From: an uncultured virus (IMG/VR IMGVR_UViG_3300028591_000018)
Lineage: Duplodnaviria; Heunggongvirae; Uroviricota; Caudoviricetes
Virus record (IMG/VR): IMGVR_UViG_3300028591_000018
Length of the DNA stretch: 64,000 nucleotides
Strand: one strand, 5' to 3'
The notes under the pieces were generated by a model that saw only the letters and a program-made list of their open reading frames with translations, was not told where the DNA came from and did not search any database. This document shows, piece after piece, positions 3,226 through 63,999 of this stretch (the stretch's first letter is position 1; every line of letters begins with the position of its first letter). The position numbers were made by a program, and so were the translations under genes.

Positions 3226-3894
3226 TTATTGATTTGATAAAAGCTGAGTTTCACCATCATTTACCGCGATCCAAATCGTGTCCCGGCACTCGCAGAACGT
3301 CAAACCGTTTTTTTCAATGGTTTTTCCGGTAAACTCTAAAGGATTTCCATAAGGAAATACTTTTTTTGAAGTAAAATCACTGTTATGTCCAAACACTCCT
3401 GATGGAGCAGATACATAAACTTCTGCAGATAATTTATCTGCGCCAAACAACCCAGAATTATTTTGAATTTCTTTCGGCTGTTTAATACTGTCATCCACGC
3501 TCATTAATGGCAGTTTCATCGGATCGAAATGACTCCGATAGTTATTCCAGGTACTTCGTGCTTCAAAGTGAAGATGCGGTCCTGTGGAATTACCGGTATT
3601 TCCGGAATATCCAATGATTTCACCCTGCGTAACTTTACGACCAACTGTAGTGGTCCGAATCGTAACAAGATGCGCGTACAATGTCGCATGAGAAGCATCA
3701 TGCTCAATAATTACACAATTTCCATAACCGGTCTTATCAAAACCGGCATAACGGACCACCCCATTTTCAGATGCAAAAATGGGGGTACCAACCGGGCAAC
3801 CATAATCAATCCCTGTGTGGAAATTGGAAGTAATTGTTTCCCCGTAATATTGAGTAATCGGCCATTCTCCGGAAAAAGGCTGACGGTAGCTCAT
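3226..3894 (-). CDS. Endolysin, M23 family peptidase
   Basis: HTGIDY (HxxxD), YAHL and STGPHLHFE (HxH) motifs; next to a holin. Confidence 0.9.
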   Translation of the reverse strand: MSYRQPFSGEWPITQYYGETITSNFHTGIDYGCPVGTPIFASENGVVRYAGFDKTGYGNCVIIEHDASHATLYAHLVTIRTTTVGRKVTQGEIIGYSGNTGNSTGPHLHFEARSTWNNYRSHFDPMKLPLMSVDDSIKQPKEIQNNSGLFGADKLSAEVYVSAPSGVFGHNSDFTSKKVFPYGNPLEFTGKTIEKNGLTFCECRDTIWIAVNDGETQLLSNQ

Positions 3895-4259
3895 CCTAAA
3901 ACCTCATCATGAGGAGGGAGCTCTCCGCCATTATTTTTCAAATCCTTTACCGCAGATTCGATATACATCACGATCACATCAACATCCAGAGTAATACCCT
4001 TTGCCGCAAGGTACTTTTCAATTACGTTGATTGCATATTTCTTTTTCTCTTCACCTTTTTCTCCGCCGAAAATCTGCTCTGCAGCCTCAACTGCTTTACG
4101 AGAGACAACATTAAGAATCTCATAAAGTTCGGGGTTCTTATCTTTTACTTTTTTAAAAATTTCAATGCACTTTCCGATCATCCACCCGGCTCCGGCACTA
4201 ATCAGGATCGGGAGGGCTGTCTCGAGAAGAATCTGCAAAATTTTACTCAAAAGTTCCAT
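3891..4259 (-). CDS. Phage holin (LL-H-like)
   Basis: N-terminal TM segment and AVEAAEQIFG..GEEKKKYA...IESAV pattern. Confidence 0.8.
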   Translation of the reverse strand: MELLSKILQILLETALPILISAGAGWMIGKCIEIFKKVKDKNPELYEILNVVSRKAVEAAEQIFGGEKGEEKKKYAINVIEKYLAAKGITLDVDVIVMYIESAVKDLKNNGGELPPHDEVLG

Positions 4260-5677: not shown

Positions 5678-6364
5678 TTAGGCAAAAATCTGAGCGATCT
5701 CGGCCGGCAGCGGCAGACGAGCATCAACAGCCTCAGTACTGCCACTTGCAGGAGTACCATAAAGAATCTTTTCCAAATTGCCAAGCTTGGTGGCATCAGC
5801 TTTTGTAGAATCAATGGTAATGCAAGAGACCGGCTTATGACCAGAAACAATAACCGGGGTCGTAGTGATTTCCCAACTGAAAGTGATCGCTTCAGGGGAA
5901 TCATTAATCGTCTGATACTGACGTTCAGACGGGGAAGCCTTACAGCCATAGATCAGATGGAGCTTATAACCATGATCATTACCATCAATATCATTACCAA
6001 GAACGGTACGATAACAAAGACCAAAGGTCTTGCGACTCTGCTGACCAAGAACAACACCAGTTGCGAGCTCAGCAGAACCATCACACTCAGCCCATTCATC
6101 CGGATAAGTATAAGCTTCAACCGTCGCACCAAATTCTTCAGCAGAATAGAGGTTCAGATATTTAATGTTATCTGCATAAATTGCATTAGCTTCAGCACCG
6201 GACGGGCTTTCAGAGACAGAAGAAAGACCATTCCAGGCAACACCAGGGGTATAAACACCAGAATCATTAATCGGATAAAGCACCCCATGATCAAGACCAG
6301 TTTCGTAAAAACGACTGCCACTATCATCCCATGTAAGCTTATAAACAACTTCATCGTTAGCCAT
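5678..6364 (-). CDS. Major tail protein
   Basis: YETGLDHGVLY, GVAWNGL, YADNIKY motifs (phi13-like MTP). Start moved to ATG 6364, which has an AAGGAG RBS. Confidence 0.85.
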   Translation of the reverse strand: MANDEVVYKLTWDDSGSRFYETGLDHGVLYPINDSGVYTPGVAWNGLSSVSESPSGAEANAIYADNIKYLNLYSAEEFGATVEAYTYPDEWAECDGSAELATGVVLGQQSRKTFGLCYRTVLGNDIDGNDHGYKLHLIYGCKASPSERQYQTINDSPEAITFSWEITTTPVIVSGHKPVSCITIDSTKADATKLGNLEKILYGTPASGSTEAVDARLPLPAEIAQIFA

Positions 6365-16312: not shown

Positions 16313-16347
16313 TTTATGAGCGACCTCCTTTCTTTAAATGTCTTTTA

Positions 16348-19188: not shown

Positions 19189-21987
19189 CTAAATATTGCC
19201 GTTCTTCTGTTCTCTAACGTAATAAAGGACAGTAGAAACCGGAATATTCAAAGATTCTGCGATCTCGGCATTAGAATAACCGGAACGGCGCAGAGAAAAT
19301 AATCTCGTGATTTTTGTATTGCTGAGCCCTTTTTCGGACCGTGGCGTAGCATACTCACGGACGGTATTCGTATCAGTAGCATCTAATATTTGCTTCAGCA
19401 GCGAATCAGATATTGCGCCGGCCTGAATAGCGGTCCACTCTTTCGGCGTAATATTAATCTTATAGCGCTGGGCACCTACTTCAAGCCGTGCAGCAGTCAG
19501 AAATTGCTGAGCGTACTTTCCGCTCTGCTTCTTGTCATCCCGAAGCTCCGGGTTCTCTTTGTAAAGTGCCTGCATGCGCACATTGGCACGGCGCTGGGCT
19601 TCACGTTCACGGGGGGCATTCAATCTCGAGCTGCGCAATTTTTCTTTAAGTGAATCCACTTCATTCTTAAAAACTTTCGCGGCAGACGGACTGTACTCCA
19701 GGTTCGGTGTATTGTACTTGTACTCTTTGCGAGCCTGATTGGCAAGCGCCTTGAGCTGTGATGCGTAACGGGCATAGAGCAACTCGGTCGGGTTCTGCTT
19801 TTCAGAGACAAGTTCATAAGGATCATCGATCTCGAGCATGCGGAAGCTCTCCTGAGTGCGGGTCTTCTCTCGGCCCTTCTCATCAATATAGTGGGCATCA
19901 AAGGCTTCTTTCCAAACCTTCTTGCCTGTCTCCTCATCAACATCAAATTCTCCGCGCCGCTTGGCAACACGTTCAGGGCTCTTGGCACGGGTCACGATAG
20001 TACCGGATCCATAAACCCAGCGACCATCCTCATTGTAGTGGCCCTGATATTTGTCCTTAAGCTCCTGGATCTTGTTCTCTTCTTCAGACAGCTTGTAGTC
20101 AAGCTTGTGCTTCTTGGCGTCAATGACAACCATTGAATGCTTCACTGCACGGGCAACCTCATCATCCGGAGCACCGGCAAGGGTCATGTCCATAATAAGA
20201 TTCGTGATCTTGCCCATCTCCATGTCTGTACGCTGCATGTACTTCATACCGGGCCGTTCAGGATATGAGACTTCAGGATCGAACCCTTCAAGCTCTTTCA
20301 AATATTGTCGATGAGAGACCTGCACTTTAGAGGATAATGGAATGACCATGACTGTGTCACCATCAAAATCAGCGCCGGACAGCTGCTTGGCTGTCTCTGC
20401 ATTAATACCGACTGCATCGGTCGGATTTTTAGTCAGCATAGAAATTCCTTCACGGTTCTTGTTGTTCACCGTAAGGACCGGGATCTCAAAAATTCCTCCA
20501 TGAGGGTAACGGACAAGCGCAACCTTCTCGCCATCCTTAAAGTTAGGAGCATAAATTTGGTCGTTCTTCATGCTCTTGATTGGAATAATGACCTGATAGC
20601 GCTGACGCGGAAGAGCTGCCGCATCCAGATGAACTGCAGTCGAGTCACAGTCTTCAGCAAAGGTTTCTAATAATCGGCGCTTGACGGTCGGATTTGTTAA
20701 ATTACAAATATCCTCGTACTCGGCCATCTTGTCTGCAATTGACAAATCAAGCTGATTTTTTACCAGCTTAATATTCTGCTTGGACAAAAATTGGGAAGGC
20801 AAAGATTTTGACCAGTCATTCCAGTCCCCTTCATCAGCACGTTTATTAATAAGCGATAATTTCCGTTCACCGGTCTTTGAGTCAATATAGTGGCTCTGGC
20901 CTTTTGCAGAAATATAGGAACCGAAGGGATTCATCGGATCATCAGTCTTAATATCCTTAAACGGGTCTTCGCCTTTCTCACGAGATTTTCGGGAATTGTA
21001 AATAATGTCATACCCATCCGGAATATCGTCGGAATATACTGCCATCCCTTTCATATATTTCTTTCCGTCCACTAAAATTCGGACTTGAGAATATCGGGAA
21101 CCGCCAAGTGATAAATCCTCCACACCGGGGCGAATTTGAATAAGGCCGTCACGCTGGTCACCGCCGTCTTCAATATATTTGACTAAAATACGTTTGCTGT
21201 CCATAGAAGCAGGATATTCAAATTTGTCAAATTTTTCTCCGCTTCCATCCTGAGAAGCATATTCAAATAATGGATTAATTTCTCCATACTGATATGCCTG
21301 ATTCTTCGGGGATCCGGGAGGACATAAAACCTTCAATGTCGTCCGCTGCCCATGTTCATTTGTAACCTGAGGCATGGAACCTACACGAACTTCATATCCT
21401 TCTTTCTTTAAAATATCGACAGCCTGTGTAAGCTTCTCTTTGGAAATATTCAATTCCCGATTTACTTCCGCGCCCACGTCGACCGGACCTTTTTCATCAA
21501 CTACTTTTTTCAAAAAATCAGCTGTCTGCTGCGCTTTATTCGCACGGCGCTGACGCTGCTTGTCAATAATTGAACGAAATGTTGATTCCGGAATACCCAT
21601 ACGCCGAGCTGCCTCGGTTTGAGATACTCCGTCTTTAATTAATTGGTTGGCCCATTGAATTCTGTATGCAGAAATATCGTTGTTTGATCTGCGGATCTCT
21701 GCACGAAGTTCAGATGTAGTAGAATATCCGCACTTCTTCGCGATCTCGATCTCAGAATATCCCTTGCGGCGCATCTTGCGCACACGGTTCAAAAAATCGA
21801 GTTCATGCTGAAAAGGAACTTCACCGGATCCCCAAGGGTATCGCCCTGAGTGTCTCTTTGTTCCGTAATGGGCGAAAAAATCCTTGTCTGCTTCCGGTGC
21901 GGCAACCGAAAGTAAAATATCCTGTGCAATGTCATTGTCAAGATTCATTGCCAGTGTAAACAAAATATTCTTTGCGATGCCGTTCAT
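19189..21987 (-). CDS. Single-chain two-barrel RNA polymerase (YonO/QDE-1-like) with HTH domains
   Basis: GADFDGD (DFDGD at 20356-20370), RYPH, DGLIQI/SQVR/MKG, VVIDAKK; HTH-like segments at both ends. Confidence 0.8.
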   Translation of the reverse strand: MNGIAKNILFTLAMNLDNDIAQDILLSVAAPEADKDFFAHYGTKRHSGRYPWGSGEVPFQHELDFLNRVRKMRRKGYSEIEIAKKCGYSTTSELRAEIRRSNNDISAYRIQWANQLIKDGVSQTEAARRMGIPESTFRSIIDKQRQRRANKAQQTADFLKKVVDEKGPVDVGAEVNRELNISKEKLTQAVDILKKEGYEVRVGSMPQVTNEHGQRTTLKVLCPPGSPKNQAYQYGEINPLFEYASQDGSGEKFDKFEYPASMDSKRILVKYIEDGGDQRDGLIQIRPGVEDLSLGGSRYSQVRILVDGKKYMKGMAVYSDDIPDGYDIIYNSRKSREKGEDPFKDIKTDDPMNPFGSYISAKGQSHYIDSKTGERKLSLINKRADEGDWNDWSKSLPSQFLSKQNIKLVKNQLDLSIADKMAEYEDICNLTNPTVKRRLLETFAEDCDSTAVHLDAAALPRQRYQVIIPIKSMKNDQIYAPNFKDGEKVALVRYPHGGIFEIPVLTVNNKNREGISMLTKNPTDAVGINAETAKQLSGADFDGDTVMVIPLSSKVQVSHRQYLKELEGFDPEVSYPERPGMKYMQRTDMEMGKITNLIMDMTLAGAPDDEVARAVKHSMVVIDAKKHKLDYKLSEEENKIQELKDKYQGHYNEDGRWVYGSGTIVTRAKSPERVAKRRGEFDVDEETGKKVWKEAFDAHYIDEKGREKTRTQESFRMLEIDDPYELVSEKQNPTELLYARYASQLKALANQARKEYKYNTPNLEYSPSAAKVFKNEVDSLKEKLRSSRLNAPREREAQRRANVRMQALYKENPELRDDKKQSGKYAQQFLTAARLEVGAQRYKINITPKEWTAIQAGAISDSLLKQILDATDTNTVREYATPRSEKGLSNTKITRLFSLRRSGYSNAEIAESLNIPVSTVLYYVREQKNGNI

Positions 21988-22557: not shown

Positions 22558-22819
22558 AAAAAACCTCTTCCTTATTCTCAGGGCATATGAAACGAGAAAA
22601 TGACATGCGGTTCAGCATGTCAACGTAATATTCCTGGTTTGGCTGTTTGTGCTCATGCGCAGACTTTTTAGTTTCAAGCATTGCCCAGTGCTTTCCATAG
22701 AGCACCAAAACATCAGGAATGCCTTGCAAATAGTTCGCATCATTCTTCAAAACAACACAACCCGGAAAGCGCTCTTTCAATTCATCGATCACGCGCTTTT
22801 GAAATATTCTTTCAAGCAT
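22529..22819 (-). CDS. VRR-NUC domain nuclease
   Basis: ERIFQ..GIPDVLVL..LETK..QPNQ; start at MLERIF with GAAAGGA RBS. Confidence 0.85.
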   Translation of the reverse strand: MLERIFQKRVIDELKERFPGCVVLKNDANYLQGIPDVLVLYGKHWAMLETKKSAHEHKQPNQEYYVDMLNRMSFSRFICPENKEEVFYELQQSFQP

Positions 22820-22836: not shown

Positions 22837-23000
22837 TTGTCTGAATATTAGAGCTGTCCTGGCCCACCTTCTATTTCCGCCATAGTAAAGGAGAAAAAAT
22901 GTAAAGGAGATTGGCCCATGAAAAATAGAAACCTATGAAGAAAGGGAGGATCTTCATTGGAAAATAGAAAGTGGGATAGGCCGGCCCTAATCTCAGACAA
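22837..23000 (-). ncRNA. Structured leader/ncRNA with anti-SD segments
   Basis: Nested inverted repeats (TTGTCTGA/TCAGACAA, ATTAGGGC/GCTCTAAT, CCCACTTTCTATTT/AAATAGAAGGTGGG) enclosing three CTCC(C)TTT tracts. Confidence 0.55.
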
Positions 23001-23070
23001 AAAAATAAGAGGCCATGTACTGATCATGGCTTCTTAAAAACAAAAGAGAGAAGAAACTATCTTCTTCTCT

Positions 23071-23098
23071 CTATAAAAGGGCATGTTTTTTATGCGAA
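23071..23098 (-). promoter_or_regulatory. Phage promoter motif copy 1
   Basis: TTCGCA-TAAAAAACATGCCC-TTTTAT-A. Confidence 0.7.
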
Positions 23099-23109
23099 GT
23101 CAGAAAATA

Positions 23110-23406
23110 TCAGATTCTGTCCTCGCGTTCATCGAGTTCATGCTGGTGATTCTTATGACAGATCACGCATTCGGGAAAATTCGTACGGCATGAATAACAT
23201 TCAGGGCCATAGGCTTCTACGTACTCGTCAAGAAATTCTTTCCTTGTGATGACTGCTCCGCACTTCGGACAAATATAGCATTCCTTTTGCGGATCCCACA
23301 TCATAAATACTCCGCAGCAATCAGTAAGTACACCTTCACCATCCTGGTCATAAACGTCTTCATAGCGGTCACCAAAAATGGCACCGCAATCCACATCTCT
23401 TATCAA
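23110..23406 (-). CDS. Cys-rich Zn-finger protein
   Basis: CC, CPKC, CYSC and CVIC pairs. Confidence 0.6.
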   Translation of the reverse strand: MIRDVDCGAIFGDRYEDVYDQDGEGVLTDCCGVFMMWDPQKECYICPKCGAVITRKEFLDEYVEAYGPECYSCRTNFPECVICHKNHQHELDEREDRI

Positions 23407-23634
23407 GTTCGGTTTGGCTCCTTTCGAAATATTAATGGTCTATCCATTATACCCGAAAGCAGCTCCCATTAACCAAATAGAAAATATTCGTCCCTACGAC
23501 CTTATCAACCTTATTGATCTTATTGATCTCATTGGTCTTATTGACCTTATAGGTTTTTTCAACCTTCCAAATCGGTTGAAAAATACCCATCTTCAAACCC
23601 CTTAAAATCAGCATGAAAACCCTCCAAAAACCGC

Positions 23635-28596: not shown

Positions 28597-29040
28597 CTAA
28601 TTTTTACCCCTTTTAATAATCTCAAACCGAACCGGACCAATTCCCTTAATTTGTTTGAGCTGATCATTTGAATACGCTACCAGCAAACGCAAGTTTGTAA
28701 TTCCGTTTGCGATAAGAATGTTGTATGCACGAATCGCTTCTCCTTTACGATCTTCTGGTGACCGCATGATCAGACGGTTCTTCAATTCCAACTTTCTCAT
28801 TTCAATAGTGTTGCGAAACAGAAGTTCTTTTCTGCGCAAATCTTCAAGAAATCGTACTTCGCTTTTACTAAGGCCGTACATACGATGATTGTAAGGCGGA
28901 GTCCATTCGATCAAATCGTCCATATCGGCGATACCGTATTTATAAGTTAAAACATAGAACATGTTTTGCCGACGACTTGGCGCGATTTCATAAGAATGAT
29001 CAATGTAGTACATAAGAGAAATAGAAGTCGATTCATTCAT
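28597..29040 (-). CDS. Protein with RNAP alpha-CTD/HhH-like domain
   Basis: IRAYNILIANGITNLRLL..DQLKQIKGIGPVRFEII. Confidence 0.65.
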   Translation of the reverse strand: MNESTSISLMYYIDHSYEIAPSRRQNMFYVLTYKYGIADMDDLIEWTPPYNHRMYGLSKSEVRFLEDLRRKELLFRNTIEMRKLELKNRLIMRSPEDRKGEAIRAYNILIANGITNLRLLVAYSNDQLKQIKGIGPVRFEIIKRGKN

Positions 29041-32659: not shown

Positions 32660-32770
32660 TACAAAAAAGACAGACAAGATCCACCCGCACCATATGGATC
32701 CTGTCTGCCAGAGGCTCACAAGGGTTATGGATTAAATTATTGGAAAGGAGGTTAGTTTGTAGTGCGGAGG
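32660..32770 (-). ncRNA. Candidate anti-SD small RNA ending in a terminator
   Basis: ORF-less gap containing AACCTCCTTTCC, followed by the GCAGACAGGATCCA/TGGATCTTGTCTGT stem and a T6 tract. Confidence 0.45.
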
Positions 32771-33079: not shown

Positions 33080-33721
33080 TCATAAATACTTGTACTCTTC
33101 ATAAATACACTGAAGAATCGCCAAATTCTTCGGACCGCAGCGTTTCAGCGAGTCTAACGACTCATACGGCATATCAAGCAGATCCTTCAATGTTTTCAGT
33201 CCGGTTGCTTTCAGCATACGGCTGAACTGACTCTTTGTATGATAAGAAGTCATATCACCGAATCGCTGATCGTAAATATCAATCAAAAGGATCTCGTCTT
33301 TTGACTTGGCGACCATCTTGCTTAATTCTTCCGGAGTCGGCCCTACGATCTTATGAGAATATAAATCGTAGAGCTGTTTCTTGATGTCATCCAGATCGTT
33401 CAGGCATCGTCCCTGTGAATGCTGCAAATACCTTTGCATCCTTTCCAGTTCTTCCATTTTAGAAACAATATTTTCAGGAAGCGGATGTTTTTTAAGATGC
33501 AAAGCCATCGTTACATCAATTGAATCCTCCAAATTCTTCTTATGTTCTTCGAAAGAACTCCGGAGTTCATTGAGCCCTTCATTAAGAATATAAGTCTGGG
33601 CCGAAACATTCACCAGATTCGTATTGAGATCGTCAAACTTGCTTTCCAAAGCAGTCAGACGTTCTGCCAGGGATCCGATTTCAGTCTGAGAAACACCACC
33701 AAGAAATTCAACAAAAGACAT
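33080..33721 (-). CDS. Coiled-coil protein with C-terminal alpha-CTD/HhH-like domain
   Basis: RMLKATGLKTLKDLL..ESLDSLKRCGPKNLAIL; RBS AAAGGAGAAAAAATG. Confidence 0.6.
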   Translation of the reverse strand: MSFVEFLGGVSQTEIGSLAERLTALESKFDDLNTNLVNVSAQTYILNEGLNELRSSFEEHKKNLEDSIDVTMALHLKKHPLPENIVSKMEELERMQRYLQHSQGRCLNDLDDIKKQLYDLYSHKIVGPTPEELSKMVAKSKDEILLIDIYDQRFGDMTSYHTKSQFSRMLKATGLKTLKDLLDMPYESLDSLKRCGPKNLAILQCIYEEYKYL

Positions 33722-33734
33722 TTTTTCTCCTTTT

Positions 33735-57531: not shown

Positions 57532-58065
57532 TTAACTTCTTTTCTTAAACATTCGATCGAAATCGAATGCATGCCGGGAAATATCTTTCCCCGATGCAGA
57601 GGTGATCGTCTCACCTCCTGCCTCAAACGTGTTCTGGCGCTGCATCAATGCGCCATAACATATGAATGATACTACGGTACCTGCAATGCTCAACAGAGCA
57701 TTGAGGAAACCATTTCTCTTAATAGATTTAACCTCTTCTACCCGAAGAGCAATCTCCTCCTCGCGGCACTGCTTATCGAACTCGATTTTTTCAAGTTCGG
57801 CTTCGGATTTTTTCTTTTCGAGTTCAAGCCGTGTATGTGCGACTTGTACCTCTTTCATCGTTTTTAACGATGAAATCAATTTTTCCGATTTTTCTGGCTG
57901 TTCATCCGAACAAGCCATGGCCTTTTTCAATAGTTCATCCGACGCTTCTGCGTAGATGTCTTCCGGAATTTCAACGATTTCCGGGTTTTCAACAATTTGT
58001 GCCGCTTCTTCAGCGACACTTATTTCATTCACAGATTTATTATTTTTTTGATACTTCTTTCCCAT
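57532..58065 (-). CDS. Coiled-coil protein with C-terminal TM (cassette gene)
   Basis: Own promoter, hairpin and terminator; AAAGGAG RBS. Confidence 0.7.
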   Translation of the reverse strand: MGKKYQKNNKSVNEISVAEEAAQIVENPEIVEIPEDIYAEASDELLKKAMACSDEQPEKSEKLISSLKTMKEVQVAHTRLELEKKKSEAELEKIEFDKQCREEEIALRVEEVKSIKRNGFLNALLSIAGTVVSFICYGALMQRQNTFEAGGETITSASGKDISRHAFDFDRMFKKRS

Positions 58066-58112
58066 TTTTCTCCTTTTTTACAAAAAATAAAGAGCAGATC
58101 ATCCGTGTCTGC

Positions 58113-58140
58113 TCTTTAAAGGCGTTGATTTTCTCGCGCT
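58113..58140 (-). promoter_or_regulatory. Phage promoter motif copy 11, with GAGCAG hairpin at 58092-58114
   Basis: AGCGCG-AGAAAATCAACGCC-TTTAAA-GAGCAG. Confidence 0.65.
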
Positions 58141-58494
58141 CAGTTTTCGTATTTAATTTTTACATCAAATACAGCGCTCAGTGAAAAATCAAGATTTTTC
58201 AGGGTATCCTGATCTTTCAACTCCAGAAGCAACTCTGCTGACCCATCGGAATGCACAATTTTATAAAGTGTTCCGATCGGCTCTGGTTTTACAGATTTTT
58301 TGATCAATCTGCCAATACACCAGCCGATAGCTCCTCCGATCGCAAACCAGATCGGAATCGGCACCGCTATAATGAAATTCTCAATCTCCTGAATCATGAA
58401 AACTCCGTATAAAAACTTTTTTCATTTTTCCTCCCCCGGGAATTTTTGCATTAAGAATATACCATTTTGAATTGTCACCTGAGTACGGAACTTT

Positions 58495-58827
58495 TCAGTC
58501 AGATTCATATCCTCTTTCTATCAGTTCAAGAATTGCATAATTTGCAATATCTTTCAAAGTATCTTCGATGCTTTCATCAGCAACATGCACATCGTGACTA
58601 CTATAAAGCCTTTTCAAACGATTGAGTTTATCGGTGAGACGATAGCAGATTGAATTCGGAAATTCCTTCCGAAGTTCCGCAAAACTGTCGCCATAATCTG
58701 CATTTTTCCGTTCATACAAATCTGTCAGTTCCTTACAGATTTTTTTATGCTTATTAACCTTATTATGTTGTTTACCCATTTCCATTAATTCATCACAGTA
58801 TTTTTTATCATATTCGGTGGTATTCAT
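58495..58827 (-). CDS. DUF1599 / nucleotide-modification-associated domain protein
   Basis: KNADYGDSF, RLTDKLNRL, ESIEDTLKDIANYAIL. Confidence 0.8.
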   Translation of the reverse strand: MNTTEYDKKYCDELMEMGKQHNKVNKHKKICKELTDLYERKNADYGDSFAELRKEFPNSICYRLTDKLNRLKRLYSSHDVHVADESIEDTLKDIANYAILELIERGYESD

Positions 58828-59211
58828 TTTTTCCTCCTCCATTTTGAATGCCCTATTAATGCCGAAACGGTTACTGCTTGTTCTATAATATTCACAAATC
58901 ACATTAAAACACATAGCCAAGCTCCACCAATCCACTGATAATATCATCCAAATGCTCATCTGCAAGCCGTTGAATGGCTCCGCGCATTCGTTCCGGGTCT
59001 TTTTCCATTAAACATTCATACAATTTATTACATAGCCATGCTTTTTCATAGCAATCAATAATCTTCCGGTTAGCTTGTTTTTCCGGTTGATATACCGCAC
59101 GGGAATATGATCCTCTGAGGCCCTTCACAAGCTTCTCGGTAAGCACCACATTGTACTCGTTGATTCGTTGATTTGTGATCGGATTTACTTCATCAACCAT
59201 ATAGATTTTTC

Positions 59212-59535
59212 TCATTTTTTCTGATCCTTTTCATATTGTCGTTTGAAGAATTCAAAAGCCTTGTCGACCGTAAGATAACCGACTACTTCATCACCATATT
59301 CTTCTTCTGTAATATCAAAACCCATCGCTTCCAGAAGTCCGTACTCATGACCATATGAACCCATATTGCACACAACATCCCCACATCCAGGCTTCCTAAG
59401 TTCCCATTTTCCATCTGAGGAATACCGGATCTGTCCGCCAAATATTGGATTATCATCACATAAGAATTCATGCGGAATTCCGGCGATTTCAAGTTCTTCA
59501 TGCAATTTCTGTAACGGTTTAATTAAATCTGTCAT
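59212..59535 (-). CDS. Hypothetical protein
   Basis: MTDLIKP with GGAGG RBS; GSYGHEYGLLEAMG..VVGYLT. Confidence 0.7.
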   Translation of the reverse strand: MTDLIKPLQKLHEELEIAGIPHEFLCDDNPIFGGQIRYSSDGKWELRKPGCGDVVCNMGSYGHEYGLLEAMGFDITEEEYGDEVVGYLTVDKAFEFFKRQYEKDQKK

Positions 59536-59559
59536 TTTACCTCCAATAAGATCCAATAG

Positions 59560-59658
59560 AAAAAAAATAAAAGAAGTTGAACCGAATCGAACGGTTCCAG
59601 GCGGGCAGACAAGACCCGTCGCCCACTCACAAACTTTCGTTTGCTTTAACTTCTTCTC
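59560..59658 (-). ncRNA. tRNA-like small RNA (non-canonical)
   Basis: 8-bp closing stem, GAAA-tetraloop arm, central arm and GAACCG-TTCGATT-CGGTTC T-arm; own promoter (copy 12, 59657-59684) and T tract. Confidence 0.65.
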
Positions 59659-59683
59659 ATTAAAGTCCATGTTAATATTGCGT

Positions 59684-59826
59684 AAAAAATAGCAGGAGAT
59701 GTGTTAACTATAAACTCTACCTGTTGTGCAGCTATCTCACAACAGCAACTTTATAGCAACGGATATCTCCTGCTTAATTTAATGCCAGCTCATTTTTTCT
59801 CCTTTCTTTAAGTGAACTAGCTCCTA
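59684..59826 (-). ncRNA. Small RNA with SD and MSWH minigene (59779-59793)
   Basis: Promoter copy 13 at 59823-59850; AAAGGAG-AAAAA-ATG AGC TGG CAT TAA; long AGCAGGAGAT/ATCTCCTGCT terminator stem. Confidence 0.65.
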
Positions 59827-59848
59827 TTTAGACTATGTTTTTCATGCG

Positions 59849-59954
59849 AAAATAAATAGGAGAAGCGCCTGCAATTAACGCTTCTCCTTTCAAATAATTA
59901 ATAATATTTGTACAGTGCTAGGTCATTTTTCCTCCTTCCTATTGCACTCTCATC
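59849..59954 (-). ncRNA. Small RNA with SD and MT minigene (59918-59926)
   Basis: Promoter copy 14 at 59953-59980; AAGGAGG-AAAA-ATG ACC TAG; AGGAGAAGCG/CGCTTCTCCT terminator. Confidence 0.65.
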
Positions 59955-59979
59955 ATTATAGAAGATGTTTTTTTCGCGG

Positions 59980-60071
59980 AAAAAATAAGAGCCTTTGCAA
60001 CGACTCTTATTTTTAATAAATATCTTTGCACCTCCTTTCTTCATAGGAACCTGCTTTCGGGTATGCAGGTC
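59980..60071 (-). ncRNA. Small RNA with orphan SD
   Basis: Promoter copy 15 at 60070-60097 (TTCGCA-N14-TATAAT); ACCTGC/GCAGGT hairpin; AAAGGAGGTG; AAAAATAAGAG/CTCTTATTTTT terminator. Confidence 0.6.
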
Positions 60072-60097
60072 ATTATAGAGAATGTAAATCTTGCGAA

Positions 60098-60514
60098 TTA
60101 TTTCCGCAATTTCGAGAGGATCCAGAAAAATCTTCGAAAGCTTTCATAATACGTTTCCTTACAGCAGGGAACGTCCATACGAGCCGTCAGGTATTCATAG
60201 GAAATTCCTTCTGTGACTCCTTTGAAAATATAATTTCCCAAATCCTCCGAACAAGCTTTTGCCGCCTTATCAACCATATCCAGATGGTCTGTCAGCAATT
60301 CCCGCCGCAGCACAGCCGTAAGAACCGGATCACTCGGCCCCGCGGATTTTCCAATTTTTTCGGAATACGGCGATCCCATCAGGCTGATCATTTTCAGCTC
60401 TTCCTTCCATTCCGGATACTGAAGGCAAAAATGCTTCAGCTCATAAAACCGATGTCTGCTGATCCAGTATGAACTGCGCTTTGAGATCTCAGGACGAATA
60501 TTGGTACCCATCAC
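60098..60514 (-). CDS. Putative transcriptional regulator (RinA/ArpU-like)
   Basis: ELKHFCLQY.EW..DPV..A; C-terminal HTH-like ISYEYL..TYYESFRRFFW. Confidence 0.5.
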   Translation of the reverse strand: MMGTNIRPEISKRSSYWISRHRFYELKHFCLQYPEWKEELKMISLMGSPYSEKIGKSAGPSDPVLTAVLRRELLTDHLDMVDKAAKACSEDLGNYIFKGVTEGISYEYLTARMDVPCCKETYYESFRRFFWILSKLRK

Positions 60515-60753
60515 CGCTCTCCCTTCCAGACAAAGCCTGTATGCTCGAAAAGCAGTTTGGGCGAAATATAATAATTGATCCGCCCGTATTTGCTGTTCAT
60601 TTCCTCAATAGAGGTGACCAGTTTGCCGTTCCGTGTTGCGTTCCCGATAGGTAGCCATCCACAGATCAAACCGGCCCGCACCCAGCACGCATCCTTCCCG
60701 TACGCCCGCGCTGCCACGGACACCGGTACATTACCGTTAGAATACTCTTCCAT
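60511..60753 (-). CDS. Small winged-HTH / excisionase-like protein
   Basis: VPVSVAARAYGKDACWVRAGL..LPIG..YYISP. Confidence 0.55.
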   Translation of the reverse strand: MEEYSNGNVPVSVAARAYGKDACWVRAGLICGWLPIGNATRNGKLVTSIEEMNSKYGRINYYISPKLLFEHTGFVWKGER

Positions 60754-60836
60754 AAATTTCTCCTTTCGTGAGTCTTCTATCTCCGAAACTTATTCTATGA
60801 TAGCCAGGCGTAATCTAAAATAAAAACTTATGTTGA

Positions 60837-60890
60837 AAAAATAAAAGGAGTTGTAAAAATAAAAGGAGTTGTAAAAATAAAAGCCCTTGT
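60837..60890. repeat. 18-bp tandem repeat (2 exact copies and 1 variant)
   Basis: AAAAATAAAAGGAGTTGT twice, then AAAAATAAAAGCCCTTGT. Confidence 0.85.
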
Positions 60891-60908
60891 GGGGCTCAAC
60901 TTCCTTTC

Positions 60909-61085
60909 TTATTCAAATTTTGCTGAGATCTTCTCAGCAAAGTCCATTCCGATTTCGAACGCTTCTCCATAAAGCGTCATAAACATCTTGAAATACCACC
61001 GACGAAGCGGTGGAATACAACAAATAATTATGGACAAAACTGTCCAAATCAATAAAAATCCAAAATAAATATTTATAAAATTCAT
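60909..61085 (-). CDS. 58-aa membrane peptide (not in ORF track)
   Basis: MNFINIYFGFLLIWTVLSIIICCIPPLRRW...; AAAGGAG RBS; cassette context. Confidence 0.7.
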   Translation of the reverse strand: MNFINIYFGFLLIWTVLSIIICCIPPLRRWYFKMFMTLYGEAFEIGMDFAEKISAKFE

Positions 61086-61131
61086 CTTTTTTCTCCTTTT
61101 TTAAAACAACGAGCAGATCATCCATGTCTGC

Positions 61132-62655: not shown

Positions 62656-62778
62656 ATTTTTTTTCTCCTTTTTAAAAATAAAGAGCAGATCATTTATGTC
62701 TGCTCAATAAAGGCGTTGTAAAAACCGCGATTATAAATTGTAGGAGTATAATAACTTCTACAAGGAGAAAAAATATCA

Positions 62779-63999
62779 ATGCTGATAAAGTGTCCGGAAT
62801 GTGAACTGTCAGTGAGTGATAAAGCCATTATATGCCCTCACTGCGGCTATCCTTTAAAGCCCGAAGCGAAGAATATCAATTACCGATCCACCAGAAGGAA
62901 GCGCCTTCCGAATGGTTTTGGGCAAATATCAAAGATCAAAGGGGCGAACCTTCGTAAACCTTTCCGAGCCATGGTCACGATCGGAAAAACCGACGAAGGA
63001 AAACCCGTATGCCGATTATTACAGCCGGAAGCCTACTTCGAAACCTACAATGATGCTTATCAGGCATTAGTAAAATATAATAAAGATCCATATGTATTTA
63101 GCAATAATTTAACTGTTGGAGAGCTATACGAAAGATGGAGTGAATATCATTTTAAAACAATTTCTGCAGGTGCGGCGACAAACCTTGGAGCAGCCTGGAA
63201 ATACTGCAATTCCATCAAAAATATCAAACTTGTTGATCTGCGAAGTCGGCACATAAAGTATTGCATGGAAGAAGGAACTGTTACACTAAAAAACGGAAAT
63301 ATCAAACATCCCTCAGTAAACATGAAAAACGTGATTAAAGTCATGTTTAATCAAATGCTTGATTATGCTGTTGAATACGAATTGATCGATCGAAATTATG
63401 CCCGAAACTTCTCTGTATCAAAAGAAGACCGTAAAGAGATGGCAGAAAACCGTGAAAGCCATATCCCGTATACTGATGAAGAAATCGAAAAACTCTGGGA
63501 AAATATCAATTTCAATGAAGTTATAGGTATTATTCTGATTCAGTGCTATACCGGTTGGCGTCCGAAAGAACTTGAAATCATGAAAATCAGTGATATTGAC
63601 CTTGAACTTGGAACCATGAAAGGCGGTGTCAAAACCAGAGCCGGCAAAAATCGCATTGTACCGATCCACTCAAGAATCTATGATCTCATTAAAAAGTATT
63701 ATGAAGCCAGTAAAAAATCCGGCAGCGAATATCTTTTTACAATGACCGGCCGCAGCAAACTATTTTCCTACACGAAATTCGATTGGAACCTGAAACAAAT
63801 CAAGTCACAATTAAATCTAAACGACCGTCACCGTCCCCACGATGGTCGTGCGCACTTTATCACCCAGGCCAAAAAATATCACATGGATGAATACGCCATC
63901 AAACGAATCGTCGGACATGAAATCAAAGACCTAACCGAAAACGTCTACACCACCCGAGATCTCGAATGGCTAAAAGCCGAAATCGAAAAAATACCTTAA
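62779..63999 (+). CDS. int: Tyrosine integrase with N-terminal Zn ribbon
   Basis: TGWRPKEL (R), KT (K), HDGR (HxxR), VGH, VYT (Y); AAGGAG RBS. Confidence 0.92.
   Translation: MLIKCPECELSVSDKAIICPHCGYPLKPEAKNINYRSTRRKRLPNGFGQISKIKGANLRKPFRAMVTIGKTDEGKPVCRLLQPEAYFETYNDAYQALVKYNKDPYVFSNNLTVGELYERWSEYHFKTISAGAATNLGAAWKYCNSIKNIKLVDLRSRHIKYCMEEGTVTLKNGNIKHPSVNMKNVIKVMFNQMLDYAVEYELIDRNYARNFSVSKEDRKEMAENRESHIPYTDEEIEKLWENINFNEVIGIILIQCYTGWRPKELEIMKISDIDLELGTMKGGVKTRAGKNRIVPIHSRIYDLIKKYYEASKKSGSEYLFTMTGRSKLFSYTKFDWNLKQIKSQLNLNDRHRPHDGRAHFITQAKKYHMDEYAIKRIVGHEIKDLTENVYTTRDLEWLKAEIEKIP

What the first reader, a model, noticed from the sequence alone, without database searches (positions are those of the whole stretch)
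59560..60097. Tandem array of four independently promoted small RNAs that mimic translation substrates
Seen: four contiguous promoter-RNA-terminator units of ~120-165 bp with no real protein gene. They are an orphan-SD RNA, an MT minigene RNA, an MSWH minigene RNA and a tRNA-like RNA. The three SD-bearing RNAs each have a complementary segment in the anti-SD RNAs at 22.9 or 32.7 kb. Inference: an undescribed phage RNA module of mRNA-start and tRNA mimics, acting as ribosome or defence decoys or as one arm of a sense/antisense timing circuit tied to the phage RNAP.
Basis: partly seen in the sequence, partly recalled or inferred. Interest (0 to 1): 0.9.

Follow-up and report, generated by a model that had tools for sequence, protein, structure and literature searches.

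The report
Phage small-RNA array with tRNA mimic
A gut phage carries four back-to-back mini transcription units that appear to make small non-coding RNAs rather than proteins, one of them a tRNA-shaped RNA that cannot decode and that recurs in many related phages.

Summary
Read on the minus strand, 59560-60097 has four copies of this temperate Oengusvirus-like phage's recurrent promoter-like motif. Each is followed by a folded RNA and a hairpin plus U-run, and no credible ORF is present.

Unit 4 is a real structured RNA. It forms a cloverleaf with a canonical T-arm, kept in six distinct sequences: 162 of 162 cells paired and 5 pairs with compensatory changes. It is a divergent relative of promoter-abutting tRNA-like leaders with non-standard anticodon arms. 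A model of those leaders hit 37 times in 83 related loci, with strong hits in 33.

Units 2 and 3 are conserved in close relatives. Unit 3's SD/start segment has a perfect complement in the leader of the operon encoding the phage's YonO-like RNA polymerase, in 3 of 3 genomes (15, 16 and 11 nt).

Best reading: early small RNAs consisting of antisense regulators plus a tRNA-derived leader. The ribosome-decoy idea remains untested, and no RNA-end data could be obtained. I found no description in print.

The parts
60101..60514 (-). Conserved 138-aa gene (phrog_11237) immediately upstream of the array. It served as the anchor for finding related loci.
   Evidence: The model has pLDDT 84.6 and only weak sigma-region-4 and Q-like fold matches.
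60072..60095 (-). Promoter-like motif 1, with a TATAAT hexamer at 60077-60072.
   Evidence: 0 mismatches; 30.7 bits.
59979..60069 (-). Unit 1 RNA. It has a 5' hairpin at 60069-60050, a 12-nt SD-like run at 60040-60029 with no start codon, and a terminator hairpin at 60014-59981 plus U-run.
   Evidence: It is absent from L004, L005 and L006. A tentative look-alike exists in L087.
59955..59978 (-). Promoter-like motif 2, with a TATAAT hexamer at 59960-59955.
   Evidence: 0 mismatches; 35.5 bits.
59848..59950 (-). Unit 2 RNA. It has an SD at 59939-59931, a Met-Thr-stop at 59926-59918, and a terminator stem at 59888-59858 plus a U-rich tail.
   Evidence: The promoter, SD and a 2-codon ORF are also present in L004 and L005 (Met-Lys, with synonymous codons). 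L006 has none.
59825..59848 (-). Promoter-like motif 3, the weakest copy.
   Evidence: 24.0 bits. It needs 3 mismatches to the pattern. It is conserved in L004, L005, L006 and L089.
59684..59821 (-). Unit 3 RNA. It has a 9-bp hairpin at 59821-59784 with the SD-like run (59807-59799) in its loop and the start codon in the stem. The 4-codon ORF lies at 59793-59779, and a long terminator hairpin at 59774-59691 is followed by a U-run.
59659..59682 (-). Promoter-like motif 4. Its hexamer ends at 59659, 4 nt before the cloverleaf begins.
   Evidence: 0 mismatches; 30.6 bits.
59571..59655 (-). Unit 4, a tRNA-like cloverleaf. The acceptor-like helix pairs 59655-59648 with 59578-59571. Arm 1, capped by a GNRA loop, is at 59644-59629. 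Arm 2, which is invariant, is at 59626-59600. The T-arm is at 59597-59579.
59560..59570 (-). U-run after the cloverleaf, a possible partial terminator. The SD and ATG (59535) of the next gene follow with no promoter in between.
59215..59535 (-). First gene of the operon led by unit 4 (107 aa, no family match).
22887..22901 (-). Perfect 15-nt complement of unit 3's SD/start segment. It lies in the leader of the endonuclease-exonuclease-RNA polymerase operon.
22932..22945 (-). Perfect 14-nt complement of unit 1, in the same leader.
23449..23462 (-). Perfect 14-nt complement of the loop and 3' arm of unit 1's 5' hairpin. It lies in the 5' UTR of the small gene 23406-23113.
32735..32750 (-). A 15-of-16-nt complement of unit 2, which also holds a 10-nt complement of unit 1's SD-like run. 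It lies in a 3' UTR.

Best explanation
The region is an RNA-only early module of a temperate Oengusvirus-like siphophage.

Each of four copies of the phage's early/middle promoter motif drives a short non-coding transcript. Units 1 to 3 end at strong hairpin/U-run terminators and release RNAs of roughly 90-140 nt. Each of these displays a purine-rich, SD-like segment.

At least unit 3, and in this phage also unit 1, most likely acts in trans. It would base-pair through that segment with pyrimidine-rich stretches in the long structured leader of the middle operon. That operon encodes an endonuclease-like protein, an exonuclease and the phage's YonO-like RNA polymerase. Early transcription would thereby be linked to the onset of polymerase expression.

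Unit 4 is a tRNA-derived cloverleaf. It has an acceptor-like helix and a canonical T-arm, its D-arm is replaced by a GNRA-capped hairpin, and its anticodon arm is replaced by a long invariant hairpin. It is transcribed with little or no 5' leader. It serves as the structured 5' leader of the next operon and may also be released as a tRNA-shaped RNA, but it cannot decode.

Shown here: the motif statistics, the folds, conservation, covariation in unit 4, family membership by covariance model, and the complementarities and their recurrence. Inferred: promoter activity, RNA ends, pairing in vivo and its regulatory effect.
For: Promoter motif. It is strand-specific and enriched: 12 matches against 0.5 expected, all on the minus strand. 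Across the window and 83 loci it scores 467 times on the gene strand and 14 times on the other strand.

Unit size. The three intervals are shorter than the 5th percentile of 383 intervals.

Coding. No credible ORF exists under three genetic codes.

Conservation. Units 2-4 are conserved behind the same gene in L004, L005 and L006, whose anchor protein is 63-72% identical.

Unit 4. Across 27 pairs in 6 distinct sequences, 162 of 162 cells pair. Five pairs show changes on both sides. None of 500 shuffles reaches the covariation score, and slid controls pair at <=49.4%. The GNRA loop is kept in 6 of 6 sequences. A covariance model built only from 14 tRNA-like leaders of more distant relatives hits unit 4 over its full length (16.5 bits, E 5.6e-4 in an 801-nt search).

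The wider family. That model gives 37 hits in 83 loci, all on the gene strand. All 37 abut the promoter motif. Of the 34 with enough downstream sequence, 32 have no further promoter within 100 nt and 30 have an SD plus start codon within 70 nt.

Antisense link. All 3 of 3 perfect complements of >=14 nt between the array and the rest of the 64-kb window fall within 22887-23462. Each of the two relatives' genomes carries a perfect complement (16 nt and 11 nt) to its own, different unit-3 sequence in the homologous leader. In the 90,190-base G001 genome the 14-mer occurs only at those two places. G001 lacks unit 1, and no >=10-nt complement to its array other than unit 3's was found in its leader. 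The leader is strongly structured (z -5.15), and the unit-3 target is unpaired in the minimum-energy fold.
Against: No transcript data. The two RNA runs that hold parts of this phage gave no usable cover of the array, and contigs cannot show RNA ends.

The promoters have no -35 hexamer, and the generic scan called none of them.

Unit 3's hairpin shows only one-sided changes, and the shuffle control is uninformative.

The complementary segment is an RBS-like sequence. In the window the 14-mer also occurs at a real gene start (33719-33732). The opposite strand at 22.9 kb could therefore simply carry RBS-like elements. Small non-conserved ORFs follow them in the window, G001 and G002 (read by eye).

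By shuffling, the single matches are only moderately unusual: 10 of 300 shuffles for unit 1 and 2 of 300 for unit 3. Unit 2 is not unusual at all (244 of 300). Among 200 random 100-nt pieces of the window, 11 reach 14 nt.

Unit 4 is missed by ARAGORN, by Rfam and by the family model with default filters on the whole window.

Three of the six unit-4 sequences were fetched with an exact 22-nt arm-2 pattern, so arm 2's invariance in those three is by construction.
Confidence: 0.5

Rival explanations
1. Cis-acting promoter and attenuator stack. The four units are tandem promoters for the downstream operon (59535 onward), each followed by a leader terminator. The short RNAs would be by-products, like the short terminated transcript from lambda's late promoter (recalled). 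Expression would depend on a phage antiterminator or activator, perhaps the neighbouring 138-aa protein.
For: Hairpin plus U-run leaders directly after promoters are common in this phage. The same leader hairpin follows six other promoters. Unit 4 is followed by a gene with no promoter in between. The 138-aa protein gives weak fold matches to a Q antiterminator chain (Z 5.6) and to sigma region 4 (Z 4.4-4.9).
Against: This model does not explain why unit 3's internal hairpin/SD segment is kept across relatives. It also does not explain why complements of units 1 and 3 cluster in another operon's leader. The terminators of units 1-3 are long and stable. The fold matches are below the level the tool's own notes call trustworthy.
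Confidence: 0.2
2. Mimics of translation substrates. The long SD-like runs would sequester 30S subunits or shield the RNAs from 5' exonuclease. The 2- and 4-codon ORFs would drive peptidyl-tRNA drop-off. The tRNA-like RNA would occupy tRNA-handling enzymes or tRNA-directed defence nucleases.
For: Unit 1 carries the longest SD-like run on the minus strand of the window (12 nt; 10 runs of >=9 nt in all). A 2-codon ORF behind a good SD is present in the window, L004 and L005, with a synonymous change between L004 and L005. In unit-3 homologues the start-codon position holds ATG, GTG or TTG in 5 of 5 sequences. Short minigenes are known to sequester tRNA as peptidyl-tRNA (PMC2490762, abstract and passages). 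Strong SD sequences without a start codon are known to stabilise RNA (PMC7509114, passage).
Against: SD-like runs of 9-11 nt also precede ordinary genes here, for example 11 nt at 16333. ORF length is not conserved: 4, 4, 11 and more codons across homologues, and in L087 the Trp codon is a stop that improves pairing. In unit 3 the start codon lies inside a stem. Any ATG in an ORF-less unit is followed by an early stop, so 'minigenes' may be incidental. Minigene toxicity was reported for hosts with defective peptidyl-tRNA hydrolase. Nothing here tests ribosome or enzyme binding.
Confidence: 0.12
3. Decayed gene cassettes. The units would be remnants of small protein cassettes (promoter, RBS, first codons, terminator) left by deletions in a mosaic region, with no function of their own.
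For: More distant relatives carry small protein genes in the same position, each with its own promoter and terminator. Examples are the 36-, 48- and 77-aa ORFs in FP_oengus and many 35-67-aa cassettes elsewhere. Unit 1 is unique to the window among the four closest sequences. Unit 2's terminator and ORF differ between relatives.
Against: Unit 4 shows compensatory changes. Unit 3's 5' part is kept in 5 sequences with 43 of 45 cells paired. ORF-less arrays occupy the same position in L004, L005, L006 and L091 with partly unrelated sequences. Remnants would not be expected to keep complements elsewhere in the genome.
Confidence: 0.1

Closest known systems
tRNA genes (Rfam RF00005) and phage-encoded tRNAs
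   Same: Unit 4 has a cloverleaf, a 7-nt T-loop closed by a G-C pair, and an acceptor-like helix formed by the 5' and 3' ends. The related leaders in other phages score 40.2-61.7 bits on RF00005.
   Different: Unit 4 itself is not called by ARAGORN or Rfam. Its D-arm is a GNRA-capped hairpin. Its anticodon arm is a 9-10-bp hairpin with a 5-nt loop in the fold. No CCA is encoded. It abuts a promoter and is followed by a U-run and a gene. In the relatives ARAGORN reports loops with 2- or 4-base 'anticodons' in 13 of its 25 calls, and I read GNRA tetraloops in two more.
Bacterial and mycobacteriophage YrlA-type Y RNAs, which are tRNA mimics (Chen et al. 2014, PMC4201824; abstract and passages read)
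   Same: Both are non-coding RNAs with a tRNA-like module (T-arm and acceptor-like stem) that does not decode. Both are found in phages.
   Different: In YrlA the RNA ends form the Ro/Rsr-binding stem at the anticodon side, and the 'acceptor' is a closed stem-loop. In unit 4 the ends form the acceptor helix. The PHROG scan of 82 window ORFs named no Ro60/Rsr protein. No Rfam family matched even at E<=10. The 5' motif quoted in that paper is not conserved across the six sequences, by my reading.
Trans-acting antisense small RNAs of temperate phages, such as lambda OOP, P22 Sar and P1/P7 C4
   Same: These are short, promoter-to-terminator phage RNAs that would act by base pairing with a phage mRNA leader to time gene expression.
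   Different: Here the RNAs are encoded 37 kb from the target rather than opposite it. The seed is an SD/start-like sequence. There are several units in tandem. Pairing is only predicted.
STAB-SD and SP82-type 5' stabilisers of Firmicutes (Agaisse and Lereclus 1996, seen as a reference entry; Hue et al. 1995, as cited in PMC7509114, passage read)
   Same: Both have a strong SD-like sequence near an RNA 5' end that is not followed by a productive ORF.
   Different: Those elements sit in the 5' UTR of a long mRNA that they stabilise. Units 1-3 end at their own terminators.
Lambda bar-type minigenes (PMC2490762, abstract and passages; the lambda bar details themselves are recalled)
   Same: Both have a good SD followed by a 2-4-codon ORF and a stop, on a phage genome.
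   Different: Here the ORF length and codons vary between relatives. One start codon is buried in a stem. Translation has not been shown.
Anticodon-less tRNA mimics in leaders of an unrelated uncultured 192-kb phage
   Same: Both are tRNA-derived RNAs lacking an anticodon loop, placed in the leaders of early phage transcripts and preserved by compensatory changes.
   Different: That note is a lead, not evidence.

Membership tests
tRNA (RF00005) | Scores at or above the Rfam gathering threshold, or is called by a tRNA finder. | tested here: not met
   Unit 4 got no ARAGORN call and no Rfam hit at gathering or at E<=10. Relatives' leaders do reach 40.2-61.7 bits.
tRNA (RF00005) | A 7-nt anticodon loop on a 5-bp stem, able to decode. 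| tested here: not met
   In the fold, arm 2 is a 9-10-bp bulged stem with a 5-nt loop. It is invariant in all six sequences.
tRNA (RF00005) | A T-arm with a conserved 7-nt T-loop, stacked on an acceptor helix formed by the two ends. | tested here: met
   Four of the 6 T-stem pairs show compensatory changes.
Promoter-abutting tRNA-like leaders of Oengusvirus-like phages (defined here, model R1) | Matches the covariance model built from 14 members over its full length. | tested here: met
   16.5 bits, E 5.6e-4, model positions 1-74, in an 801-nt search with filters off. There was no hit with default filters on the whole window, so this is a weak, divergent member.
Promoter-abutting tRNA-like leaders of Oengusvirus-like phages (defined here, model R1) | Starts within a few nt of the promoter motif and is followed by a U-run and then the next gene's SD, with no promoter between. 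| tested here: met
   For the window. For the family: 37 of 37, 30 of 37, 32 of 34 and 30 of 34.
YrlA / Y RNA | Rfam model match; an Ro60/Rsr gene nearby; RNA ends forming the Rsr-binding stem. | tested here: not met
   No Rfam hit. The PHROG scan of 82 ORFs named no Ro60/Rsr protein. The ends form the acceptor helix, whereas YrlA is built the other way round.
tmRNA | A tRNA-like domain plus a tag reading frame, as called by ARAGORN or Rfam. | tested here: not met
Trans-acting antisense sRNA | A discrete transcript with its own promoter and terminator. | tested here: inconclusive
   The motifs and terminators are present. No RNA-end data were obtained.
Trans-acting antisense sRNA | Conserved complementarity to a target RNA. 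| tested here: met
   For unit 3, 15, 16 and 11 nt in 3 of 3 genomes, each matching its own sequence variant. Caveat: the seed resembles an RBS.
Lambda bar-type minigene | A translated 2-8-codon ORF whose expression sequesters a tRNA as peptidyl-tRNA. | not testable with these tools
   Only the SD, start and stop can be seen. ORF length is not conserved.
STAB-SD 5' stabiliser | An SD-like run in the 5' UTR of a longer mRNA that it stabilises. | tested here: not met
   SD-like runs are present, but units 1-3 end at strong terminators before any gene. Whether read-through occurs is unknown.
Sigma-70-type promoter | A -35 and a -10 hexamer at 16-18 nt spacing. | tested here: not met
   The scan of 58800-60800 called none of the four. 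They have a -10-like hexamer plus a conserved upstream block instead.

The most novel reading that the evidence does not exclude
A widespread group of gut phages may run part of its early programme with RNA alone. SD-loop small RNAs made from dedicated early promoters would pair with the leader of the operon encoding the phage's own YonO-type RNA polymerase and set the timing of the switch to late transcription. Alongside them, a tRNA mimic without an anticodon would be born directly at a promoter with no need for 5' processing. It would engage host tRNA-handling enzymes, or blunt tRNA-directed defences, while also capping the next operon's mRNA.
Probability: 0.22. Interest if true: 0.85.

Novelty: new variant of a known kind. 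Interest (0 to 1): 0.62.

Why it matters
Relatives of Faecalibacterium phage FP_oengus are common in gut viromes. Oengus itself was reported in up to 40% of samples (PMC5883640, passage read). Their non-coding content has not been described in anything I could find. If the reading holds, there are two consequences:
- Many 'tRNA-???' or odd suppressor-like calls in such phages would be leader RNAs rather than decoders. That affects the annotation of phage tRNAs and inferences about stop-codon recoding.
- The array would give a simple, testable case of small RNAs controlling a phage-encoded single-subunit two-barrel RNA polymerase operon.

The tRNA-like leader is also a compact natural example of a tRNA body reused as an mRNA 5' module.

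Tried and rejected
Searches that found nothing:
- Nucleotide similarity to 50,697 phage records gave no match.
- A single-protein scan and an exact 26-nt scan of viral contigs found nothing.
- No whole genome is held for this window.
- This scan holds no earlier notes on this genome or this sequence.

RNA evidence:
- One sheep-gut metatranscriptome holds contigs identical to parts of 58.0-61.1 kb but gives essentially no cover of the array. A second run holds a diverged 151-nt contig over 59967-60117. Both are contigs, may derive from DNA, and cannot show RNA ends. I draw nothing from them.

Protein-coding readings:
- Table 11, TAG=Q and table 4 give only frames that cross terminators or promoters.
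- The 152-aa frame at 59212-59670, which would extend the downstream gene over the cloverleaf, is rejected. Arm 1 differs in length by 2 nt between the window and all five relatives, so the frame is not kept.

Other rejected or unsettled ideas:
- Unit 3 as a conserved peptide. The ORF is 4 codons in the window, L005 and L089 but longer in L004 and L006, and L087 has a stop at the Trp position.
- YrlA/Y RNA and tmRNA (see Membership tests).
- The 138-aa protein as a recognisable regulator. It has no Pfam family and no Foldseek match at E<=0.001. VIA-align gave only Z<=5.6, which is too weak to name it.
- Homology of unit 1 to a unit in L087. The pairwise alignment is only 77% identical over low-complexity sequence, so this is tentative.
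- The window-wide default-filter search with the family model found nothing. Only the unfiltered local search did.
- One script meant to locate features by typed strings was not run. Coordinates were instead read from the ruler.
Full report
CONTEXT

The window is a temperate siphophage. An integrase lies on the plus strand at 62779-63999. Every other recognised gene is on the minus strand, running from early genes near 62.6 kb down to terminase, portal, head and tail genes below 19 kb.

The phage encodes a 932-aa YonO-like, RdRP-fold RNA polymerase at 21987-19192 (phrog_4291; a weak PF05183 match). Its nearest named relative is Faecalibacterium phage FP_oengus. A preprint places that phage in a supercluster defined by this polymerase (10.1101/842583, passages read). 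No whole genome is held for the window.

THE OBSERVATION

Read on the minus strand, the interval between the 138-aa gene (60514-60101) and the next gene (ATG at 59535) holds four copies of one motif. The motif is a CGC block, an A, an ACA block and a TATAAT-like hexamer at fixed spacing.

- The pattern has 12 matches at <=2 mismatches in the window, all on the minus strand, against 0.50 expected.
- A PWM built from 13 window sites finds 20 minus-strand and 2 plus-strand hits. All minus-strand hits lie between 62.7 and 23.07 kb, which is the early/middle region.
- A PWM rebuilt from 19 of these window sites scores 467 times on the gene strand and 14 times on the other strand across the window and 83 related loci.
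- The sites sit behind terminators and in front of SD sequences. I therefore read them as promoters.
- They have no -35 hexamer, the generic sigma-70 scan calls none of the four, and I have no transcript data. Promoter activity is inferred.

Each of the four copies is followed by folded RNA and a hairpin plus U-run. Motif-to-motif spacings are 117, 130 and 166 nt, all below the 5th percentile (177 nt) of 383 such intervals. No ORF with an SD exceeds 4 codons. Frames of 30 aa or more under table 11, TAG=Q or table 4 cross terminators or promoters.

UNIT 4, THE tRNA-LIKE RNA

The RNA at 59655-59571 folds as a cloverleaf. It has:
- an 8-bp helix formed by the two ends;
- a hairpin capped by a GNRA tetraloop where a D-arm would be;
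- a long bulged hairpin where the anticodon arm would be;
- a 6-bp arm with a 7-nt loop of canonical T-loop form, closed by a G-C pair.

ARAGORN and Rfam do not call it.

Homologues follow the same gene in three viral contigs that were found through the neighbouring protein (L004, L005, L006). Three further metagenome contigs were found with an exact 22-nt arm-2 pattern (L087, L089, L091; L088 and L090 duplicate L005 and L006).

On the six distinct sequences, all 162 cells of 27 pairs are paired. Five pairs changed on both sides, four of them in the T-stem and one in arm 1. None of 500 shuffles reaches the covariation score, and structures slid by 1-3 columns pair at <=49.4%. The tetraloop is GNRA in 6 of 6 although its letters differ. 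Arm 2 is identical in all six. For L004 and L006 this is an independent observation. For the three pattern-derived contigs it is by construction.

THE WIDER FAMILY

ARAGORN run on the 83 related loci plus a window segment gave 25 calls. By eye, 24 of them sit directly behind the promoter motif. ARAGORN labels 13 of the 25 as 'tRNA-???' with 2- or 4-base 'anticodons'. The rest carry odd assignments such as tta, tca and aaa. I read a GNRA tetraloop in place of the anticodon loop in two leaders (L058, L057).

Rfam's tRNA model scores 12 such genes in 15 loci at 40.2-61.7 bits. An alignment of 14 of them supports a cloverleaf, with 13 of 20 pairs showing compensatory changes.

A covariance model of these 14 (R1) finds 37 matches at E<=0.01 in the 83 loci, all on the gene strand. 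Thirty-five of them, in 33 loci, have E<=1e-8.
- All 37 abut the promoter motif.
- 30 of 37 are followed at once by a U-run.
- Of the 34 with at least 100 nt held downstream, 32 have no further promoter there and 30 have an SD plus start codon within 70 nt.
- The genes that follow belong to at least two unrelated families.

These elements are therefore promoter-abutting 5' leaders, not free-standing tRNA genes.

R1 contains no sequence from the window's clade. It matches unit 4 over its full length at 16.5 bits, E 5.6e-4, in an unfiltered 801-nt search. It finds nothing with default filters on the whole window. I read unit 4 as a divergent member whose D-arm and anticodon arm have been replaced.

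In the window the helix begins 4 nt after the -10-like hexamer. If the hexamer works like a bacterial -10 element, transcription would start at or just inside the helix, with little or no 5' leader for RNase P to remove. This is inference.

UNITS 1 TO 3

Unit 3's promoter, 5' hairpin, SD-like loop and start codon are conserved in L004, L005, L006 and L089. L087 carries a diverged copy. The 9-bp stem is paired in 43 of 45 cells, but only one-sided changes occur and the shuffle control says nothing. The structure is compatible with the data, not proven.

The 4-codon ORF is not conserved as a peptide. It has 4 codons in the window, L005 and L089 and more in L004 and L006. In L087 the Trp codon is a stop that turns a G-U pair into an A-U pair.

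Unit 2's promoter and SD are conserved in L004, L005 and L006. A 2-codon ORF is present in the window (Met-Thr) and in L004 and L005 (Met-Lys), and absent in L006. The terminators differ.

Unit 1 is absent from L004, L005 and L006. It has only a tentative look-alike in L087.

L091 has three other ORF-less units behind the same gene, ahead of its unit 4. L087 has ORF-less units just upstream of its unit 4. An ORF-less array ahead of the tRNA-like leader is thus a trait of this subgroup. More distant relatives, such as FP_oengus, have small protein cassettes there.

THE COMPLEMENTARITIES

Excluding the units' own hairpins, the array has exactly three perfect complements of 14 nt or more in the 64-kb window. 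All three lie within 22887-23462:
- unit 3's SD/start segment (15 nt, at 22887-22901);
- unit 1 (14 nt, at 22932-22945);
- the loop and 3' arm of unit 1's 5' hairpin (14 nt, at 23449-23462).

The first two sit in the 250-nt leader between the promoter motif at 23102-23069 and the start codon at 22818 of the operon encoding an endonuclease-like protein, an exonuclease and the RNA polymerase. That leader folds far better than shuffles (z -5.15), and the unit-3 target is unpaired in the minimum-energy fold.

In the complete genomes of L004 (G001) and L006 (G002) I fetched the homologous leader. Each carries a perfect complement to its own unit 3: 16 nt in G001 and 11 nt in G002. The sequences differ between genomes. 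The G001 14-mer occurs only at unit 3 and, inverted, in that leader within 90,190 bases. G001 lacks unit 1, and its leader shows no other complement of 10 nt or more to its array.

Cautions:
- The seed is RBS-like. The window's 14-mer also precedes a real gene at 33719-33732.
- The single matches are only moderately unusual by shuffling: 10 of 300 for unit 1 and 2 of 300 for unit 3. Unit 2 is not unusual at all (244 of 300). Of 200 random 100-nt pieces of the window, 11 reach 14 nt.
- The plus strand at these sites reads as an SD plus start codon followed by short, non-conserved frames, by my reading. A plus-strand element therefore cannot be excluded.
- I favour the minus-strand reading. The promoter motif shows minus-strand transcription entering this leader, and no motif copy lies on the plus strand nearby.
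- The 32.7-kb complement of unit 2 (15 of 16 nt) lies in a 3' UTR. I did not test it in relatives.

MECHANISM

Best reading (confidence 0.5): units 1-3 give short early RNAs. At least unit 3, and here also unit 1, pairs with the leader of the polymerase operon and modulates its read-through or translation. Unit 4 is a tRNA-derived structured leader of the next operon that may also be released as a tRNA-shaped RNA.

Rivals:
- a cis-acting stack of promoters with leader attenuators (0.2);
- mimics of translation substrates (0.12);
- decayed cassettes (0.1, credible only for units 1 and 2).

The literature I read shows that strong SD sequences without a start codon can stabilise RNA (PMC7509114, passage). 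It also shows that very short minigenes sequester tRNA as peptidyl-tRNA in hosts with defective hydrolase (PMC2490762, abstract and passages).

WHAT IS KNOWN

I found no description of these RNAs.
- The search 'tRNA-like / prophage / Faecalibacterium' returned 0 papers.
- Seven papers mention FP_oengus. I read passages in two of them. The Cornuault et al. paper has no occurrence of 'tRNA' or 'promoter'. The preprint mentions tRNA only for another cluster.
- A five-term search returned 18 papers (17 listed), none on this by title or abstract.

YrlA-type Y RNAs are the nearest published tRNA mimics found in phages, but they are built the other way round and need Ro60/Rsr. Earlier notes of this scan report anticodon-less tRNA mimics in the leaders of an unrelated large phage. 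Those are unchecked leads that agree with the leader reading.

VERDICT

This is a new variant of known kinds: a tRNA mimic and phage antisense RNAs. The family-wide, promoter-abutting tRNA-like leader is the firmest new element. The link between the small RNAs and the polymerase-operon leader is the most interesting element, and it is still unproven.

Noticed in passing
window, minus strand, just downstream of the promoter motifs at 62735, 61163, 58144, 56561, 54013 and 35528: The same 23-nt leader hairpin follows six promoters. It has a 7-8-bp stem and a 9-nt loop, and in most cases a U-run follows, placed right before the SD of the next gene. It could be a nut- or put-like antitermination site, an attenuator or a 5' stabiliser.
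   Followed up: no
window 23102-~23000, 34333-~34215 and 35308-~35145 (minus strand): Three further ORF-less promoter-to-terminator units. One is a bare hairpin plus a second terminator at 23.07 kb. The others are an RNA of about 85 nt at 34.3 kb and one of about 135 nt at 35.3 kb.
   Followed up: partly
window 60101-60514 (-): The conserved 138-aa protein (phrog_11237; at least 489 relatives in viral contigs) models well (pLDDT 84.6). Residues ~63-138 superpose weakly on sigma region 4 domains (Z 4.4-4.9, rmsd 2.3-4.2), and the top row is a Q antiterminator chain (Z 5.6, rmsd 9.2). All of this is below the tool's trust level.
   Followed up: partly
all promoter motif copies in the window: The CGC block is often the centre of a short palindrome flanked by T-runs and A-runs, about 15 nt upstream of the -10-like hexamer, and there is no -35 hexamer. 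This suggests a site for a dimeric activator or repressor, loosely like the activator box of T4 middle promoters (recalled).
   Followed up: no
L030 ~6204-6348, L073 ~1992-2135, L057 ~3478-3590, L021 ~3847-3951, L083 ~5811-5975: Related phages carry other ORF-less, promoter-abutting structured RNAs of 110-170 nt. Their 5' and 3' ends pair and are followed by a U-run, but the interiors are not tRNA-like.
   Followed up: no
L065, L068, L080, L082, L083 (tta) and L079, L081 (tca): Some family members are called by ARAGORN as suppressor or SeC tRNAs, although position 33 of the loop is not U. Automatic annotation could misread them as evidence of stop-codon recoding.
   Followed up: no
window 58000-61124: Contigs of one sheep-gut metatranscriptome run are identical to several parts of the window, for example 60901-61124 at depth 25.8. 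The phage or a near-identical one is therefore present in that kind of sample.
   Followed up: partly
window 20727-20736, 20961-20969, 21883-21891: Three of the four 9-10-nt complements of unit 4's invariant arm 2 fall inside the RNA polymerase gene. Each is at chance level individually. The clustering is unexplained and may be chance.
   Followed up: no
window 28682-28698: A near-copy (16 of 17 nt) of unit 4's GNRA-capped arm 1 hairpin occurs inside the early/middle region.
   Followed up: no
window 22887-22960, plus strand: Read on the plus strand, this stretch shows an SD followed by a start codon and an immediate stop. A second SD with a 6-codon frame and an SD-like hairpin loop also occur. 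It is a mirror image of the array's features with no recognisable promoter.
   Followed up: partly
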